A stretch of 64,000 nucleotides of DNA, taken from the NCBI RefSeq assembly GCF_055900595.2, contig NZ_CM148325.1; one strand, given 5' to 3'. The first letter of the stretch is position 1. The number at the start of each line of letters is the position of its first letter. Below are positions 1 to 44,566 of this stretch, piece by piece. The notes beneath the pieces are model-generated. The model ran no database searches. It was not told the origin of the DNA and saw nothing but the letters and a program-made list of their open reading frames with translations. The position numbers and the translations under genes were made by a program.

Positions 1-63
1 TCTGCGTCATTCCGGAGTTTATGAGGCACTAAGGCGAACATAAGAGATGGAATGAGCATCTAC
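1..63 (-). ncRNA. glmZ: GlmZ small RNA, 5' portion (gene runs off the window start)
   Basis: Reverse complement of 1..63 reads GTAGATGCTCATTCCATCTCTTATGTTCGCCTTAGTGCCTCATAAACTCCGGAATGACGCAGA, which I recognise as the 5' end of E. coli GlmZ; position upstream of aslA matches the known aslA-hemY intergenic location. Confidence 0.7.
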
Positions 64-20420: not shown

Positions 20421-20750
20421 TTACGCCAGGTTAGCGTCGAGGAACTCTTTCAACTGACCTTTAGACAGTGCGCCCACTTTGGTTGCCGCCACTTCACCGT
20501 TTTTGAACAGCAGCAGAGTCGGGATACCACGGATGCCATATTTCGGCGCAGTGCCAGGGTTTTGATCGATGTTCAGTTTTGCAACGGTCAGTTTGCCCTG
20601 ATATTCGTCAGCGATTTCATCCAGAATCGGGGCGATCATTTTGCACGGACCGCACCACTCTGCCCAGAAATCAACGAGGATCGCCCCGTCCGCTTTGAGT
20701 ACATCCGTGTCAAAACTGTCGTCAGTCAGGTGAATAATTTTATCGCTCAT
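20421..20750 (-). CDS. trxA: thioredoxin 1
   Basis: 109-aa product [53 protein letters not shown]... with WCGPC active site; the track ORF is N-extended. Confidence 0.97.
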
Positions 20751-20880
20751 ATATAACTCCACAGGAATAAGCCTGGCGTGTTGGTTTCGTTGTTGGTGTA
20801 ACATTAACCAACTAAAGGTTGACTTTATTTCACCGGATACGCTTTCGTAAAGCAATAGTAAGCTGATATTCTACCACACT

Positions 20881-35950: not shown

Positions 35951-36049
35951 CTAAGCCTTTCCTCGTCCAAGTGCAGCCCCGCACGGTGGGATAATAATCA
36001 CCACCACGCTAATCACGACCAGGCTAATCACTCGTAGAAGGGCTGTCAT
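35951..36049 (-). CDS. ilvL: ilvGMEDA leader peptide
   Basis: 32-codon ORF MTALLRVISLVVISVVVIIIPPCGAALGRGKA rich in Leu/Val/Ile regulatory codons. Confidence 0.9.
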   Translation of the reverse strand: MTALLRVISLVVISVVVIIIPPCGAALGRGKA

Positions 36050-36401
36050 TTTGTCTTTTCTTGCATCTTGTTCGAAGGAATGCCTAAAGAGTTACCATAG
36101 ATTTTGCGAATAGCACAAGATATTTTTTGGCCGATTTTTATGATGCCTTTAATAATTTCAATAGAAATTGTTGTTTTTTAAAAAGAAAACAGTGAGTGAA
36201 AAAAATTCAATTTCAGTATGAATGTTGTTCCCTTCCTCGTAGTTAATCCTTTGTCCACTGCATTTTTGCGAGCATCGTTCCACCGCCAGAACAACTCAAC
36301 TTCACTTGCACAAATAAACAGGAATCAGCCACTAAAATTCACGAATTAGCGGGCTACAGCAGCGATATCTTATGCACATAATGGCGACTCAAGGAGGGCT
36401 T

Positions 36402-37922
36402 ATGTCACTGTCAATTGTTCATACCCGCGCAGCCCTGGGAGTAAATGCGCCCCCAATCACTGTTGAGGTACATATCAGTAAAGGTCTACCCGGCTTAACG
36501 ATGGTGGGCTTACCAGAAACAACGGTAAAAGAAGCTCGCGATCGCGTGCGCAGCGCCATTATCAATAGCGGATATGAATATCCGGCGAAAAAAATCACCA
36601 TCAACCTTGCTCCAGCCGATCTGCCAAAAGAAGGGGGACGATATGATTTACCTATCGCCATTGCGTTGCTGGCAGCCTCAGAACAGCTTACAGCCAATAA
36701 GTTAGATGAATATGAATTAGTCGGAGAACTGGCGCTTACAGGCGCTCTGCGTGGCGTTCCCGGCGCAATCTCCAGTGCAACTGAAGCCATTAAGTCGGGC
36801 AGAAAAATTATCGTCGCGAAAGATAACGAGGATGAAGTGGGGCTAATTAACGGTGAAGGATGCCTGATAGCCGATCATCTGCAGGCTGTCTGTGCGTTTC
36901 TGGAGGGTAAGCACGCTCTCGAACGCCCGAAACCAACTGATGCAGTATCCCGGGCGCTACAACATGATCTCAGTGATGTTGTCGGTCAGGAGCAAGGAAA
37001 GCGAGGACTGGAAATTACCGCAGCTGGCGGGCACAACCTTTTACTGATTGGACCGCCGGGAACAGGTAAAACAATGCTCGCCAGCCGTATTAATGGCCTG
37101 TTGCCAGATTTAAGCAATGAAGAGGCACTGGAGAGCGCTGCGATATTAAGTCTGGTAAATGCTGAATCAGTACAAAAACAATGGCGGCAGCGCCCGTTCC
37201 GCTCACCGCATCACAGTGCGTCGTTAACTGCGATGGTGGGCGGTGGTGCAATTCCAGGGCCTGGTGAAATTTCGCTGGCGCATAACGGCGTGCTTTTTCT
37301 TGATGAGCTACCTGAATTTGAACGGCGTACACTGGATGCCTTGCGAGAGCCGATTGAATCCGGGCAGATCCATCTTTCACGCACGCGAGCAAAAATAACC
37401 TATCCAGCCCGTTTCCAGCTTGTCGCGGCGATGAATCCCAGCCCTACCGGACATTATCAGGGAAACCATAACCGCTGCACACCAGAGCAAACGCTGCGTT
37501 ATCTCAACCGACTCTCTGGTCCCTTTCTTGACCGATTCGACCTCTCACTGGAGATCCCACTACCGCCACCCGGTATTTTGAGTAAAGCGGTTGTTCAGGG
37601 GGAAAACAGCGCCACCGTTAAACAACGCGTAATGGCCGCCAGAGAGCGCCAATTTAAGCGGCAGAATAAACTGAATGCCTGGCTGGATAGTCCGGAAATA
37701 CGCCAATTCTGCAAGCTTGAGAGCGAAGATGCGCAGTGGCTGGAAGAAACGCTGATCCATCTGGGGTTATCGATTCGTGCCTGGCAGCGGTTACTGAAAG
37801 TTGCACGAACCATTGCTGATATTGATCAGTCCGACATTATCACACGTCAGCATTTGCAGGAGGCAGTTAGCTATCGTGCCATTGACCGTTTGCTCATCCA
37901 TCTGCAAAAACTACTGACATAA
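36402..37922 (+). CDS. comM: Mg-chelatase-like AAA+ ATPase, competence protein ComM family
   Basis: Start at MSLSIVHTRAALGV after AAGGAGGG SD; Walker A GPPGTGKTMLA, ChlI/MCM-like AAA+ domain; the track ORF is 10 codons longer. Confidence 0.9.
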   Translation: MSLSIVHTRAALGVNAPPITVEVHISKGLPGLTMVGLPETTVKEARDRVRSAIINSGYEYPAKKITINLAPADLPKEGGRYDLPIAIALLAASEQLTANKLDEYELVGELALTGALRGVPGAISSATEAIKSGRKIIVAKDNEDEVGLINGEGCLIADHLQAVCAFLEGKHALERPKPTDAVSRALQHDLSDVVGQEQGKRGLEITAAGGHNLLLIGPPGTGKTMLASRINGLLPDLSNEEALESAAILSLVNAESVQKQWRQRPFRSPHHSASLTAMVGGGAIPGPGEISLAHNGVLFLDELPEFERRTLDALREPIESGQIHLSRTRAKITYPARFQLVAAMNPSPTGHYQGNHNRCTPEQTLRYLNRLSGPFLDRFDLSLEIPLPPPGILSKAVVQGENSATVKQRVMAARERQFKRQNKLNAWLDSPEIRQFCKLESEDAQWLEETLIHLGLSIRAWQRLLKVARTIADIDQSDIITRQHLQEAVSYRAIDRLLIHLQKLLT

Positions 37923-37947
37923 AAAAAAGGGCATTTCGCCCTTTTTA
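37921..37947. terminator. bidirectional terminator between convergent comM and yifE
   Basis: aaaaaaaagggcatttcgccctttttatt: hairpin agggc-atttc-gccct flanked by A-run and T-run. Confidence 0.7.
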
Positions 37948-38286
37948 TTAATCGTCAGAATCGGTGTAGTCTTCAGCACCTTCAACCTGCGGTTTACCGC
38001 CGGAAAGGGTGTGAAAACGTTTTGGACGCTTGATACGCGTCATATACTTGGACCACACGCGTTCTGCTTCTGTCACTGGCTCACGTTCGCCACGGCATAC
38101 TGCTACGAAGAGTTTCTCTTCCTCGGTAACCGGCTCGCGTTTGCCGAGATCCAGCTCATTGAAGGCATAACCATGACGCTCAAGCAGTTGTGCCTCTTTG
38201 ATGGTGAAATCACCATGACGAGAGAATCCACGTGGATAATGTTTATTGTCGAAATATCGATTAGTCGTCGTAAAGCTTTCCGCCAT
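37948..38286 (-). CDS. maoP: DUF413 protein YifE / MaoP (Ori macrodomain organiser)
   Basis: 112-aa [55 protein letters not shown]... Confidence 0.9.
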
Positions 38287-38320
38287 CCTGCACGCTCCTA
38301 ATTCTTTGACCGAGCTAGTT

Positions 38321-38337
38321 ATGGCGCGGAGTATTAG
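38321..38337. promoter_or_regulatory. candidate maoS site
   Basis: atggcgcggagtattag (reverse complement CTAATACTCCGCGCCAT) lies just upstream of yifE/maoP; from memory this matches the 17-bp maoS motif. Confidence 0.4.
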
Positions 38338-38404
38338 TTACGCTTGACAGAGTGTAAAACAAAACATTTAAATCATAACGACAAATAATTTTGCGGAGAG
38401 CACT

Positions 38405-39339: not shown

Positions 39340-39415
39340 TGGCAGGGGCGGAGAGACTCGAACTCCCAACACCCGGTTTTGGAGACCGGTGCTCTACCAA
39401 TTGAACTACGCCCCT
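39340..39415 (-). tRNA. trpT: tRNA-Trp (anticodon CCA)
   Basis: Reverse complement gives AGGGGCGTAGTTCAATTGGTAGAGCACCGGTCTCCAAAACCGGGTGTTGGGAGTTCGAGTCTCTCCGCCCCTGCCA. Confidence 0.95.
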
Positions 39416-39423
39416 AATTAGGG

Positions 39424-39500
39424 TGGCGGAACGGACGGGACTCGAACCCGCGACCCCCTGCGTGACAGGCAGGTATTCTAACCGACTGAACTACCGCTCC
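39424..39500 (-). tRNA. aspT: tRNA-Asp (anticodon GUC)
   Basis: Reverse complement gives GGAGCGGTAGTTCAGTCGGTTAGAATACCTGCCTGTCACGCAGGGGGTCGCGGGTTCGAGTCCCGTCCGTTCCGCCA. Confidence 0.95.
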
Positions 39501-39552
39501 ACCGAATTCTTTTACAACCACCGGTTTTATGACCGGCTTACTGCTTAATTTG

Positions 39553-39672
39553 ATGCCTGGCAGTTCCCTACTCTCGCATGGGGAGACCCCACACTACCAT
39601 CGGCGCTACGGCGTTTCACTTCTGAGTTCGGCATGGGGTCAGGTGGGACCACCGCGCTAAGGCCGCCAGGCA
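39553..39672 (-). rRNA. rrfC: 5S ribosomal RNA
   Basis: 120-nt match to E. coli 5S rRNA (…CCCATGCCGAACTCAGAAGTGAAACGCCGTAGCGCCGATGGTAGTGTGGGGTCTCCCCATGCGAGAGTAGGGAACTGCCAGGCAT). Confidence 0.95.
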
Positions 39673-39755
39673 AATTCTGTTTCATCAGACCGCTTCTGCG
39701 TTCTGATTTAATCTGTATCAGGCTGAAAATCTTCTCTCAATCCGCCAAAACATCT

Positions 39756-42670
<2,915 letters not shown>

Positions 42671-42863
42671 TCACAACCCGAAGATGTTTCTTTCGATTCA
42701 TCATCGTGTTGCGAAAATTTGAGAGACTCACGAACAACTCTCGTTGTTCAGTGTTTCAATTTTCAGCTTGATCCAGATTTTTAAAGAGCAAATATCTCAA
42801 ACGTCACCCGAAGATGAGTTTTGAGATATTAAGGCAGGTGACTTTCACTCACAAACCAGCAAG

Positions 42864-42939
42864 TGGCGTCCCCTAGGGGATTCGAACCCCTGTTACCGCC
42901 GTGAAAGGGCGGTGTCCTGGGCCTCTAGACGAAGGGGAC
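42864..42939 (-). tRNA. gltU: tRNA-Glu (anticodon UUC), rRNA spacer tRNA
   Basis: Reverse complement gives GTCCCCTTCGTCTAGAGGCCCAGGACACCGCCCTTTCACGGCGGTAACAGGGGTTCGAATCCCCTAGGGGACGCCA. Confidence 0.95.
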
Positions 42940-43024
42940 GTATCAGTCTGCTTCGCAAGACGCCTTGCTTTTCACTTTCTATCAGACAATCTGTGTGAGC
43001 ACTGCAAAGAACAGTTCTTTAAGG

Positions 43025-44566
<1,542 letters not shown>

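What the first reader, a model, noticed from the sequence alone, without database searches (positions are those of the whole stretch)
36402..37922. comM (yifB) competence-family AAA+ ATPase conserved next to the ilv promoter region
ComM homologues act in DNA uptake/recombination in naturally competent bacteria; its role in E. coli is unclear. It is separated from ilvL by a 352-bp AT-rich divergent region that also carries the ilvGMEDA promoter and upstream activating sequences, so its expression may be linked to ilv promoter architecture.
Basis: partly seen in the sequence, partly recalled or inferred. Interest (0 to 1): 0.25.

Follow-up and report, generated by a model that had tools for sequence, protein, structure and literature searches.

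The report
Known E. coli comM/yifB helicase gene
This is the ordinary, intact E. coli copy of comM (yifB), a ring-shaped DNA motor that other bacteria use to integrate DNA taken up from outside; it carries its own conserved competence-type control site and is already well described.

Summary
A 506-aa ORF at 36402..37922 (+) is the RefSeq-annotated yifB. It lies exactly 352 bp from the divergent ilvL.

The protein has the full ComM architecture: a Lon-like N-domain, an MCM-type AAA+ core and a Mg-chelatase C-domain. It is 48% identical to the solved Legionella ComM. It keeps Walker A/B, sensor and arginine-finger residues, and all 88 columns that are at least 90% conserved among 122 diverse relatives. 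Among E. coli strains dN/dS is 0.03-0.09, so it is not a pseudogene.

The spacer is AT-rich only in its ilv-proximal half. The comM-proximal half carries an exact E. coli CRP-S (Sxy-dependent CRP) motif at 36267..36282. That site sits at a fixed distance from the start codon, with at most one mismatch, in 50 of 80 enterobacterial species. comM therefore has its own competence-type control.

Coupling to ilv promoter architecture is untested speculation. The comM-ilv adjacency is old but is absent in naturally competent Pasteurellaceae.

One minor new point: the zinc-finger cysteines typical of ComM are missing here. They are also missing in all 120 Pasteurellaceae relatives sampled, so this is a clade trait.

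Verdict: already known, low interest.

The parts
36402..37922 (+). comM (yifB) coding sequence, 506 aa plus stop
   Evidence: ORF. Same as the RefSeq yifB CDS in the identical genome. NF007365 YifB equivalog 1143 bits, TIGR00368 829 bits. 48.1% identity over 493 aa to L. pneumophila ComM 8rxd, E 9e-142.
36462..36827 (+). [quoted passage not shown]
   Evidence: PF13541 ChlI, E 1.5e-44. The Lp ComM DNA-contact residues K43/K46/K64 map to K43/R46/K64 (roles from PMC11612176).
36966..37559 (+). MCM-type AAA+ ATPase core (aa 189-386)
   Evidence: PF01078, E 1.3e-89; PF00493 MCM, E 7.5e-12. R315 (sensor 3), R327 (pre-sensor-1 beta hairpin) and N345 are kept.
37050..37073 (+). Walker A codons, GPPGTGKT (aa 217-224)
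   Evidence: Read from the sequence. Aligns to Lp ComM 218-225 with K223 = Lp K224.
37290..37307 (+). Walker B codons, VLFLDE (aa 297-302). This is also the region that TnsF-guided Tn6022/Tsy elements target in E. coli comM.
   Evidence: Sequence. D301/E302 align to Lp D302/E303. Targeting is from PMC10293859. An IS91-family insertion breaks the gene at 37304 in strain 2015C-3101.
37434..37478 (+). Degenerate, shortened 'zinc-finger' insert, NPSPTGHYQGNHNRC (aa 345-359), lacking the CxC...CxC cysteines
   Evidence: 104 of 123 diverse representatives have 4-5 Cys here; this protein has one. The Cys-less form is also found in 120/120 Pasteurellaceae hits and in Alteromonas and Shewanella.
37599..37877 (+). 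C-terminal Mg-chelatase-C domain (aa 400-492); carries the arginine finger R459 and, in V. cholerae ComM, the DprA-binding surface
   Evidence: PF13335, E 1.6e-30. R459 = Lp R463. DprA interface from PMC12012524.
36267..36282 (+). CRP-S site (Sxy-dependent CRP site), TGCGAGCATCGTTCCA
   Evidence: Exact match to the E. coli CRP-S motif TGCGA-N6-TTCCA as quoted in PMC6728893. It is the only exact match in the 64-kb window. 91 of 200000 shuffles of the spacer contain one. Half-sites are invariant in 6 E. coli strains. At most 1 mismatch at 120-132 bp before the ATG in 50/80 species, with 45 different N6 spacers, against 0/80 in five control windows.
36333..36338 (+). Candidate -10 hexamer TAAAAT of the CRP-S-dependent promoter (inferred start near 36345)
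   Evidence: A 'TAAAA' block is conserved across genera. It puts the CRP-S centre near -70.5, a class I position (class I positions from PMC1635313). No transcript data here.
36377..36382 (+). Second conserved -10-like hexamer CATAAT (CATAnT), possibly a basal promoter
   Evidence: Strict CATAnT lies 12-40 nt before the ATG in 56/80 species. Function not tested.
36391..36397 (+). Shine-Dalgarno AAGGAGG, 4 nt before ATG 36402
   Evidence: Sequence. (A)GGAGG is conserved in the aligned species.
37924..37946 (.). Bidirectional intrinsic terminator hairpin shared by the convergent comM and maoP genes
   Evidence: Terminator scan. Fold -18.7 kcal/mol, z -5.15, 0 of 200 shuffles as stable. Invariant in 6 strains.
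35951..36049 (-). ilvL leader peptide gene (context: divergent neighbour)
   Evidence: ORF and annotation. Rfam RF02744 covers 35831..36120 (-).
36050..36214 (-). ilv-side half of the spacer: ilvL 5' UTR, TATGGT -10-like hexamer (36094..36099), and the AT-rich upstream activating / IHF region
   Evidence: GC 26-35%. Conserved blocks at 36038-36100, 36117-21, 36173-83 and 36211-14. IHF/UAS1 about 90 bp upstream of the start, per PMC10783518. Element positions are my inference.
37948..38286 (-). maoP (yifE), convergent downstream neighbour (context)
   Evidence: ORF and annotation. Present downstream in 79/80 species.

Best explanation
The ORF encodes the E. coli orthologue of ComM. This is an ATP- and DNA-dependent hexameric motor: a Lon-like ring plus an MCM-type AAA+ ring. 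In transformable Gram-negative bacteria, DprA recruits it to the RecA D-loop, where it drives three-strand branch migration and lengthens the tract of incoming single-stranded DNA that is integrated. In this genome the gene is intact and under strong purifying selection. It is most likely transcribed from its own CRP-S promoter, so it should be switched on only when cAMP-CRP and the competence co-activator Sxy are both present, as part of the E. coli competence-gene regulon. A second conserved -10-like element may give basal expression. Shown here: gene integrity, family membership, conservation of catalytic residues, and conservation and position of the CRP-S motif. Inferred from relatives and literature: helicase and branch-migration activity, DprA recruitment, Sxy dependence of this particular promoter, and the transcription start.
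For: Family and domains. Homologue with a solved structure, 48% identity, with Walker A K223/T224, Walker B D301/E302, R315, R327, N345 and R459 aligned to the Legionella residues named as catalytic or DNA-binding. All 88 columns that are at least 90% conserved among 122 representatives (one per 50%-identity cluster) are kept. Purifying selection (dN/dS 0.03-0.09, dS 0.06-0.14) and presence in 5396/5426 genomes at >=80% coverage. CRP-S: exact motif, chance about 5e-4, positional conservation in 50/80 species with free spacer sequence and clean controls. Pasteurellaceae comM has a palindromic CRP-S about -60.5 from a TATAGT/TATATT hexamer, and the E. coli site lies one helical turn further from TAAAAT. 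Published work: ComM mechanism (PMC6158740; PMC11612176; PMC12012524). CRP-S sites were found by footprinting upstream of Enterobacteriaceae orthologues of the H. influenzae competence regulon, which includes comM, and Sxy+CRP dependence was shown for ppdD, yrfD and sbmC (PMC1635313).
Against: E. coli has never been shown to undergo natural chromosomal transformation (PMC3330819), so the process ComM serves elsewhere is undocumented here. No transcript data were available, so the transcription start and both -10 assignments are inferences. The embedded zinc finger described for ComM is absent, and I could not obtain the V. cholerae sequence to check the biochemically characterised protein. A yifB frameshift slowed growth of a genome-reduced E. 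coli in minimal medium (PMC6389913), which a transformation-only role does not explain.
Confidence: 0.8

Rival explanations
1. YifB has a second or main role in E. coli outside transformation, for example processing recombination or replication-fork intermediates after DNA damage or nucleotide starvation. On this view the competence label is only part of the story.
For: There is strong purifying selection and near-universal presence in a species not known to transform. comM (b3765) is reported as UV-inducible, and the CRP-S regulon is proposed to relieve stalled replication (PMC1635313). Nero et al. note ComM conservation in non-competent species. A yifB frameshift lowered the growth rate of strain MS56 to 69%, and yifB mutations recurred in two evolution experiments (PMC6389913).
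Against: No LexA-box-like sequence (CTGT-N8-ACAG, at most 1 mismatch) lies in the spacer. The conserved control element is a competence-type CRP-S site. yifB deletion had no effect in the one chromosome-dynamics assay reported (PMC5023128). The growth effect was seen in one engineered background only.
Confidence: 0.25
2. comM expression is mechanically coupled to the ilvGMEDA promoter. The coupling would run through the shared AT-rich, supercoiling-sensitive upstream region (IHF/UAS1, H-NS), so that branched-chain amino-acid control and comM expression influence each other.
For: The divergent arrangement and a narrow spacer length (318-357 bp, median 341) are kept in 73/80 species. comM also sits inside the ilv cluster in Alteromonas. 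ilvPG activation depends on superhelical destabilisation of the upstream region (PMC10783518). An RNA polymerase SELEX peak with H-NS was reported between yifB and ilvL (PMC3946193).
Against: There is no direct evidence. Conserved comM elements lie in the GC-normal proximal 140 bp, separated from the ilv blocks by non-conserved sequence. Pasteurellaceae and Shewanella comM have no ilv neighbour. The promoter-like TTGGCC-18-AATAAT inside the AT-rich core is not conserved. Synteny alone can be inherited without function.
Confidence: 0.1
3. The protein is what older annotations call it: a magnesium chelatase subunit or an ATP-dependent (Lon-type) protease.
For: Pfam domain names (Mg_chelatase, ChlI) and source names such as 'putative magnesium chelatase YifB' and 'ATP-dependent protease'.
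Against: BchI/ChlI equivalog TIGR02030 scores 24 bits against a cutoff of 467. LonB models score 36-39 bits against cutoffs of 517-723. There is no Lon_C protease domain hit. The closest solved structure is a DNA-bound ComM helicase.
Confidence: 0.02
4. The gene is a decaying relic of lost competence, that is, a functional pseudogene.
For: E. coli is not known to transform. The zinc-finger cysteines are lost. About 0.5% of genomes carry disrupted copies, e.g. an IS91 insertion.
Against: The reading frame is intact, every strongly conserved family column is kept, and dN/dS is 0.03-0.09. The Cys-less insert is shared with Pasteurellaceae ComM, including Haemophilus-type and P. multocida 'competence protein ComM'. 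The promoter motif is conserved.
Confidence: 0.02

Closest known systems
ComM of Legionella pneumophila (PDB 8RXD/8RXK/8RXS/8RXT), Vibrio cholerae and Haemophilus influenzae: transformation-specific hexameric branch-migration helicase
   Same: Same three-domain architecture and length. 48% identity to the Legionella protein over 493 aa. Identical Walker A lysine/threonine, Walker B DE, sensor-3 Arg, pre-sensor-1 hairpin Arg and arginine finger. A CRP-S-type site lies upstream, as in Pasteurellaceae comM.
   Different: The host is not known to be naturally transformable. The embedded C4 zinc finger seen in Legionella and most ComM proteins is replaced by a shorter Cys-less insert; Pasteurellaceae share this. 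The E. coli CRP-S is the asymmetric TGCGA-N6-TTCCA form, and its centre lies about 10 bp further from the candidate -10 than in Pasteurellaceae.
RadA/Sms (branch-migration helicase of Firmicute transformation and of general repair)
   Same: Hexameric ring built on a Lon-protease-like domain, acting with RecA on D-loops (PMC11612176).
   Different: RadA has a RecA-like rather than an AAA+/MCM-like ATPase, an N-terminal zinc finger and the opposite domain order. No RadA model matched this protein.
MCM replicative helicases and the MoxR ATPase RavA
   Same: The AAA+ core is of the same clade: PF00493 MCM at E 7.5e-12, and MCM6/7 chains matched in the PDB search.
   Different: Similarity is limited to about 100-200 residues of the ATPase core at E 1e-5 to 1e-6. 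The N- and C-terminal domains are unrelated.
Mg-chelatase I subunit (BchI/ChlI)
   Same: Shares the AAA+ core that gave the Pfam families their names.
   Different: Scores far below the BchI/ChlI equivalog cutoff (24 vs 467 bits). BchI chains match only aa 286-347. E. coli makes no chlorophyll, and no chelatase partner subunits are encoded nearby.
E. coli CRP-S (Sxy-dependent) promoters such as ppdD, yrfD/hofM, sbmC and sxy
   Same: The 10 specified bases of the published E. coli CRP-S motif are all present. The inferred distance to the promoter is class I-like.

Membership tests
ComM / YifB family (NCBIfam NF007365, TIGR00368) | Full-length match above the curated family cutoff | tested here: met
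   NF007365 1143.4 bits (cutoff 530), aa 1-506 on profile 1-506. TIGR00368 829.5 bits (cutoff 362).
ComM / YifB family | Three-domain architecture: Lon-like N-domain, AAA+ (MCM/ChlI type) core, Mg-chelatase C-domain | tested here: met
   PF13541 at 21-142, PF01078 at 189-386, PF13335 at 400-492, all far above gathering scores.
ComM / YifB family | Intact ATPase site: Walker A GxxGxGKT, Walker B DE, sensor-3 Arg, arginine finger | tested here: met
   G217-T224, D301/E302, R315 and R459 align to Lp ComM 218-225, D302/E303, R316 and R463. All 88 columns >=90% conserved in 122 representatives are kept.
ComM / YifB family | Embedded C4 zinc finger in the AAA+ domain (as described for ComM in PMC11612176) | tested here: not met
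   NPSPTGHYQGNHNRC has one Cys; 104/123 representatives have 4-5. The feature is also absent in 120/120 Pasteurellaceae hits and in Alteromonas/Shewanella. It therefore does not define the family across all clades.
ComM / YifB family | ATP- and DNA-dependent hexamerisation; helicase/branch-migration activity | not testable with these tools
   Known for V. cholerae and L. pneumophila ComM. Needs purified E. coli protein.
ComM / YifB family | Recruitment by the DprA C-terminal winged helix through the Mg-chelatase C-domain | not tested
   The interface residues are defined in V. cholerae numbering (L455, R497) and I could not obtain that sequence. dprA is not in the window.
ComM / YifB family | Required for efficient integration of transforming DNA | not testable with these tools
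   Genetic assay. E. coli is not known to transform naturally.
E. coli Sxy/CRP-S competence regulon | CRP-S motif TGCGA-N6-TTCCA upstream at a class I-like distance | tested here: met
   Exact site at 36267..36282, unique in the window. Conserved in position in 50/80 species. Centre about -70.5 from the candidate -10 (the start site is inferred).
E. coli Sxy/CRP-S competence regulon | Transcription induced by Sxy and dependent on cAMP-CRP | not testable with these tools
   Reported for the regulon in Sinha et al. 2009, which I could not read. Shown for ppdD, yrfD and sbmC in PMC1635313.
Mg-chelatase I subunit (BchI/ChlI) | Match to the BchI/ChlI equivalog model above cutoff | tested here: not met
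   TIGR02030 24.2 bits against cutoff 466.95. The cobaltochelatase model scores 36.6 against 779.
Lon / LonB ATP-dependent protease | Match to Lon family models above cutoff, with a Lon_C protease domain | tested here: not met
   TIGR02902 38.7 vs 723; TIGR00764 36 vs 517; TIGR02903 19 vs 679. No PF05362 hit at E <= 0.01.

The most novel reading that the evidence does not exclude
Enterobacteriaceae keep a fully competent ComM motor under strong purifying selection, together with a positionally conserved Sxy/CRP-S switch, although they have never been seen to transform. Either natural transformation happens in the wild under unknown Sxy-inducing conditions, or ComM has a second job in chromosome maintenance; the reported growth defect of a yifB frameshift hints at the latter. 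A subsidiary possibility is that the long-conserved divergent pairing with the supercoiling-sensitive ilv promoter, with a spacer held at 318-357 bp, couples the two promoters topologically.
Probability: 0.25. Interest if true: 0.5.

Novelty: already known. Interest (0 to 1): 0.15.

Why it matters
The window holds no new kind of element. yifB/comM is annotated in every E. coli genome, the mechanism of ComM has been worked out biochemically and structurally in other species, and CRP-S control of enterobacterial competence-gene orthologues was published in 2006-2009.

The locus still bears on one open question: why bacteria that do not transform in the laboratory keep an intact competence recombination motor and its regulatory site. 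comM is also a preferred landing site for resistance islands and Tn7-like or tyrosine-recombinase elements, which recognise the Walker B codons. E. coli comM has been shown to be targetable in this way (PMC10293859).

The session adds three modest points:
- an 80-species footprint that pins the CRP-S site and two further conserved promoter-proximal blocks;
- evidence that comM-ilv synteny reaches Alteromonas but is absent in Pasteurellaceae and Shewanella;
- the observation that the ComM zinc finger has been lost in the Enterobacterales/Pasteurellaceae/Alteromonadales group.

Tried and rejected
- **Palindromic CRP-S.** The H. influenzae-type TGCGA-N6-TCGCA gave only a 2-mismatch hit in the spacer, and hits in the whole window were at chance level (33 found, 44 expected). 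The site became convincing only with the asymmetric E. coli motif.
- **LexA box.** CTGT-N8-ACAG with at most 1 mismatch gave no hit in 36050..36401, so the reported UV induction is not explained by an obvious SOS box.
- **Generic promoter scan.** It found TTGGCC-18-AATAAT (36127..36156 +), the same pair listed in the SELEX paper. This pair lies in the non-conserved AT-rich core, so I do not take it as the comM promoter.
- **Zinc-finger loss as decay.** Rejected, because all 120 Pasteurellaceae relatives share the loss.
- **IS91-family insertion at the Walker B codons (strain 2015C-3101) as a site-specific element.** Rejected: the same IS occurs in 1543 genomes, mostly on plasmids.
- **Sinha et al. 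2009.** Not held, whether asked for by DOI or by PMC id. No supplementary tables are held for PMC1635313.
- **V. cholerae ComM.** Not obtained. Two protein searches landed on Alteromonas and Shewanella instead. A query typed from my memory of H. influenzae ComM did recover real Pasteurellaceae sequences.
- **Structure prediction.** Not run, because a solved structure of a 48%-identical homologue exists.
Full report
**Observation**

The window contains a 516-codon ORF at 36372..37922 (+). The finding's start, ATG 36402, gives 506 aa and coincides with the RefSeq yifB CDS in the one genome that matches the window at 100%, E. coli Z0117EC0005.

ATG 36402 is preceded by AAGGAGG four bases upstream. 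The ATG and this ribosome-binding site are conserved across enterobacterial genera, while the upstream in-frame ATG is not.

The spacer has 36.9% GC against 51.6% for the window. Only the ilv-proximal 200 bp are truly AT-rich (30.5% GC); the comM-proximal 150 bp have 45.4% GC.

Downstream, a hairpin at 37924..37946 fills the 25-bp gap to the convergent maoP gene. It folds at -18.7 kcal/mol (z -5.15) and has runs of A and T on either side, so it looks like a bidirectional terminator.

**What the protein is**

Pfam finds three domains: a Lon-like ChlI domain (aa 21-142), the Mg_chelatase AAA+ core (189-386, with a secondary MCM match) and Mg_chelatase_C (400-492). NCBIfam's YifB equivalog matches end to end at 1143 bits against a cutoff of 530. 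True Mg-chelatase and Lon/LonB models score 19-39 bits against cutoffs of 467-779. The 'magnesium chelatase' and 'ATP-dependent protease' names are therefore historical misnomers.

The best solved structure is ComM of Legionella pneumophila (8RXD and three related entries), at E 9e-142 and 48.1% identity over 493 residues. I mapped the residues that its authors name:

- Walker A K224/T225 maps to K223/T224.
- The Walker B acidic pair maps to D301/E302.
- Sensor-3 R316 maps to R315.
- Hairpin R328 maps to R327.
- Arginine finger R463 maps to R459.
- Lon-domain DNA contacts K43/K46/K64 map to K43/R46/K64.

I also searched 1.8 billion protein-cluster representatives and aligned 122 full-length relatives. 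Every one of the 88 columns that are at least 90% conserved is retained in this protein.

**Is it alive in E. coli?**

The locus is found in 5425 of 5426 complete E. coli genomes, and 5396 cover at least 80% of the query in one piece. Pairwise dN/dS between the window allele and five other strains, and among those strains, is 0.03-0.09 with dS of 0.06-0.14.

Rare disruptions exist. One strain has an IS91-family element inserted at window position 37304, inside the Walker B codons. That IS is common and mostly plasmid-borne, so it is not site-specific.

**A difference from textbook ComM**

ComM is described as having a zinc finger embedded in the AAA+ domain. In my alignment 104 of 123 diverse representatives have the CxC...CxC pattern. 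The E. coli protein instead has a shorter NPSPTGHYQGNHNRC with a single cysteine.

This is a clade trait rather than decay. All 120 Pasteurellaceae relatives retrieved carry the same Cys-less NPSPTG(H/N)Y.G.HNR insert, including a Haemophilus-type cluster of 4177 sequences and Pasteurella multocida 'competence protein ComM'. Alteromonas, Glaciecola and Shewanella proteins lack the cysteines too.

I could not obtain the V. cholerae sequence, so that species is inferred only by phylogenetic bracketing.

**The spacer and comM control**

The published E. coli CRP-S motif (the Sxy-dependent CRP site of competence genes) is TGCGA-N6-TTCCA (PMC6728893 quoting Sinha et al. 2009). TGCGAGCATCGTTCCA at 36267..36282 matches all ten specified bases:

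- It is the only exact match on either strand of the 64-kb window.
- Only 91 of 200000 shuffles of the spacer contain such a site.
- Both half-sites are invariant among six E. coli strains that differ at 24 other spacer positions.

I then fetched comM loci from 80 species genomes, covering Escherichia, Citrobacter, Salmonella, Enterobacter, Kosakonia, Lelliottia, Trabulsiella, Pantoea, Erwinia and Mixta. A site centred 120-132 bp before the ATG is exact in 29 species and has one mismatch in 21. There are 45 different N6 spacers among those 50 sites. None of five control windows yields a single site with at most one mismatch. The ten Erwiniaceae-like loci lack the site.

In the otherwise scrambled upstream sequence, four further blocks stand out: an A-tract (36312-18), (G/T)GAA(T/C) (36321-25), TAAAA (36333-37) and CATAnT (36377-82, strict in 56/80 species).

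If TAAAAT is the -10 hexamer, the CRP-S centre lies near -70.5, a class I position. The class I positions are given in PMC1635313, and class I-like activation at CRP-S sites is argued in PMC6728893. In Haemophilus- and Pasteurella-type contigs, comM is preceded by a palindromic TGCGATCTCGATCG(C/T)A centred about -60.5 from TATAGT/TATATT, one helical turn closer. CATAAT may be a second, basal promoter. Both start sites are inferences.

**The ilv side**

Conserved blocks cover the ilvL start, its 5' UTR and a TATGGT hexamer (36038-36100), then 36117-21, 36173-83 and 36211-14. These lie inside the 26-30% GC core, which is where the literature places IHF/UAS1, about 90 bp upstream of the ilvPG start, and the superhelically destabilised site (PMC10783518).

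An Rfam family built on the orthologous 5' UTR matches 35831..36120 (-). A SELEX study reported an RNA polymerase peak with H-NS between yifB and ilvL. The hexamer pair it lists (36127..36156, also found) is not conserved. Between the ilv blocks and the CRP-S site lies a non-conserved stretch (36215-36262).

**Synteny**

ilvL is divergent from comM in 73 of 80 species, with a spacer of 318-357 bp (median 341). maoP is convergent downstream in 79 of 80.

In Alteromonas pelagimontana, comM lies between ilvEDA and ilvY-ilvC. In Pasteurella and Haemophilus it follows engB, and in Shewanella it is elsewhere. The pairing is therefore old, but transformable Pasteurellaceae do not have it.

Coupling between the two promoters through supercoiling is conceivable. 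It is unsupported, and I give it about 0.1.

**Mechanism**

From the literature:

- ComM is monomeric until ATP and DNA drive hexamer formation, and it is a helicase that promotes branch migration (PMC6158740).
- The structure shows a Lon-domain ring stacked on an AAA+ ring around DNA (PMC11612176).
- DprA recruits ComM through the Mg-chelatase C-domain (PMC12012524).
- A 2026 preprint pairs ComM with the YraN nuclease for D-loop resolution.

The E. coli protein has every sequence feature needed for the same chemistry. What it does in E. coli is open. No natural transformation is known. yifB deletion did not affect Ori macrodomain behaviour. comM is reported as UV-inducible, yet I found no LexA box. 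A yifB frameshift reduced growth of a genome-reduced strain to 69% and recurred in evolution experiments.

comM is also a known target of mobile elements that recognise the Walker B codons, and E. coli comM has been shown experimentally to be targetable.

**Verdict**

The regulatory speculation is not supported, and the data favour an autonomous CRP-S promoter. The gene, its family, its mechanism and its regulon membership are all published, so this is 'already known'. The zinc-finger loss and the 80-species promoter footprint are small additions.

Noticed in passing
window 34165..35811 (-): ilvG is an intact 548-aa ORF, whereas K-12 MG1655 carries it as a pseudogene. The window is therefore from a non-K-12 strain; the exact match is E. 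coli Z0117EC0005 from a dog in Korea.
   Followed up: partly
window 35900..38000: The yifB allele is rare: only 10 of 5425 E. coli records are >=99% identical, and most are about 97%. Synonymous divergence within yifB reaches 0.13-0.14. The flanking ilvL, the attenuator and the yifB-maoP spacer are invariant among six strains, which suggests locally elevated diversity or past recombination.
   Followed up: partly
window 37434..37478 (aa 345-359): The C4 zinc finger typical of ComM (CxC...CxC in 104/123 diverse representatives) is replaced by a shorter Cys-poor insert in Enterobacterales, in all 120 Pasteurellaceae hits, and in Alteromonas, Glaciecola and Shewanella. I found no mention of this in the papers read.
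   Followed up: yes
L002 7406..9227 (break at window 37304): In E. coli 2015C-3101 a 1.8-kb IS91-family element splits yifB inside the Walker B codons, next to a CTTG. The same IS is in 1543 genomes, mostly on plasmids, so the position looks incidental.
   Followed up: yes
window 36312..36326 and 36377..36382: Conserved but unassigned blocks upstream of comM across genera: an A-tract, (G/T)GAA(T/C), and CATAnT 20-25 nt before the ATG. The last is a possible second promoter or a binding site for an unknown factor.
   Followed up: partly
L090 (Alteromonas pelagimontana), L088/L091 (Pasteurellaceae), L089 (Shewanella): comM lies between ilvEDA and ilvY-ilvC in Alteromonas. It follows engB in Pasteurella/Haemophilus and is unlinked to ilv in Shewanella. 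In the Haemophilus-type contig it sits a few genes from a secretin/PilP competence cluster.
   Followed up: partly
window 35831..36120 (-): Rfam RF02744 'Rev39_5p_UTR' (described from soft-rot Enterobacteriaceae) matches the ilvL leader/attenuator at 158.8 bits. That family is evidently the ilvGMEDA leader.
   Followed up: no
window 1..63, 20721..20820, 39343..44566 (all -): Other RNA features in the window: the 5' part of GlmZ cut by the window start, the TrxA 5' UTR thermometer, tRNA-Trp and tRNA-Asp, and a complete rrn operon with StyR-44. Many draft-genome comM contigs end about 1.5-2 kb downstream of comM, presumably at this rRNA operon.
   Followed up: no
window 38287..38404: The 118-bp maoP-hdfR intergenic region is the location reported for maoS, the cis site of the Ori macrodomain system. 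In that study yifB deletion had no effect (PMC5023128).
   Followed up: no
protein collection, cluster of window:36402-37919: The 90%-identity cluster holding this YifB protein (3857 members) has a 483-aa 'tagaturonate reductase' as its representative and several such members. This looks like a clustering or indexing artefact in the database.
   Followed up: no
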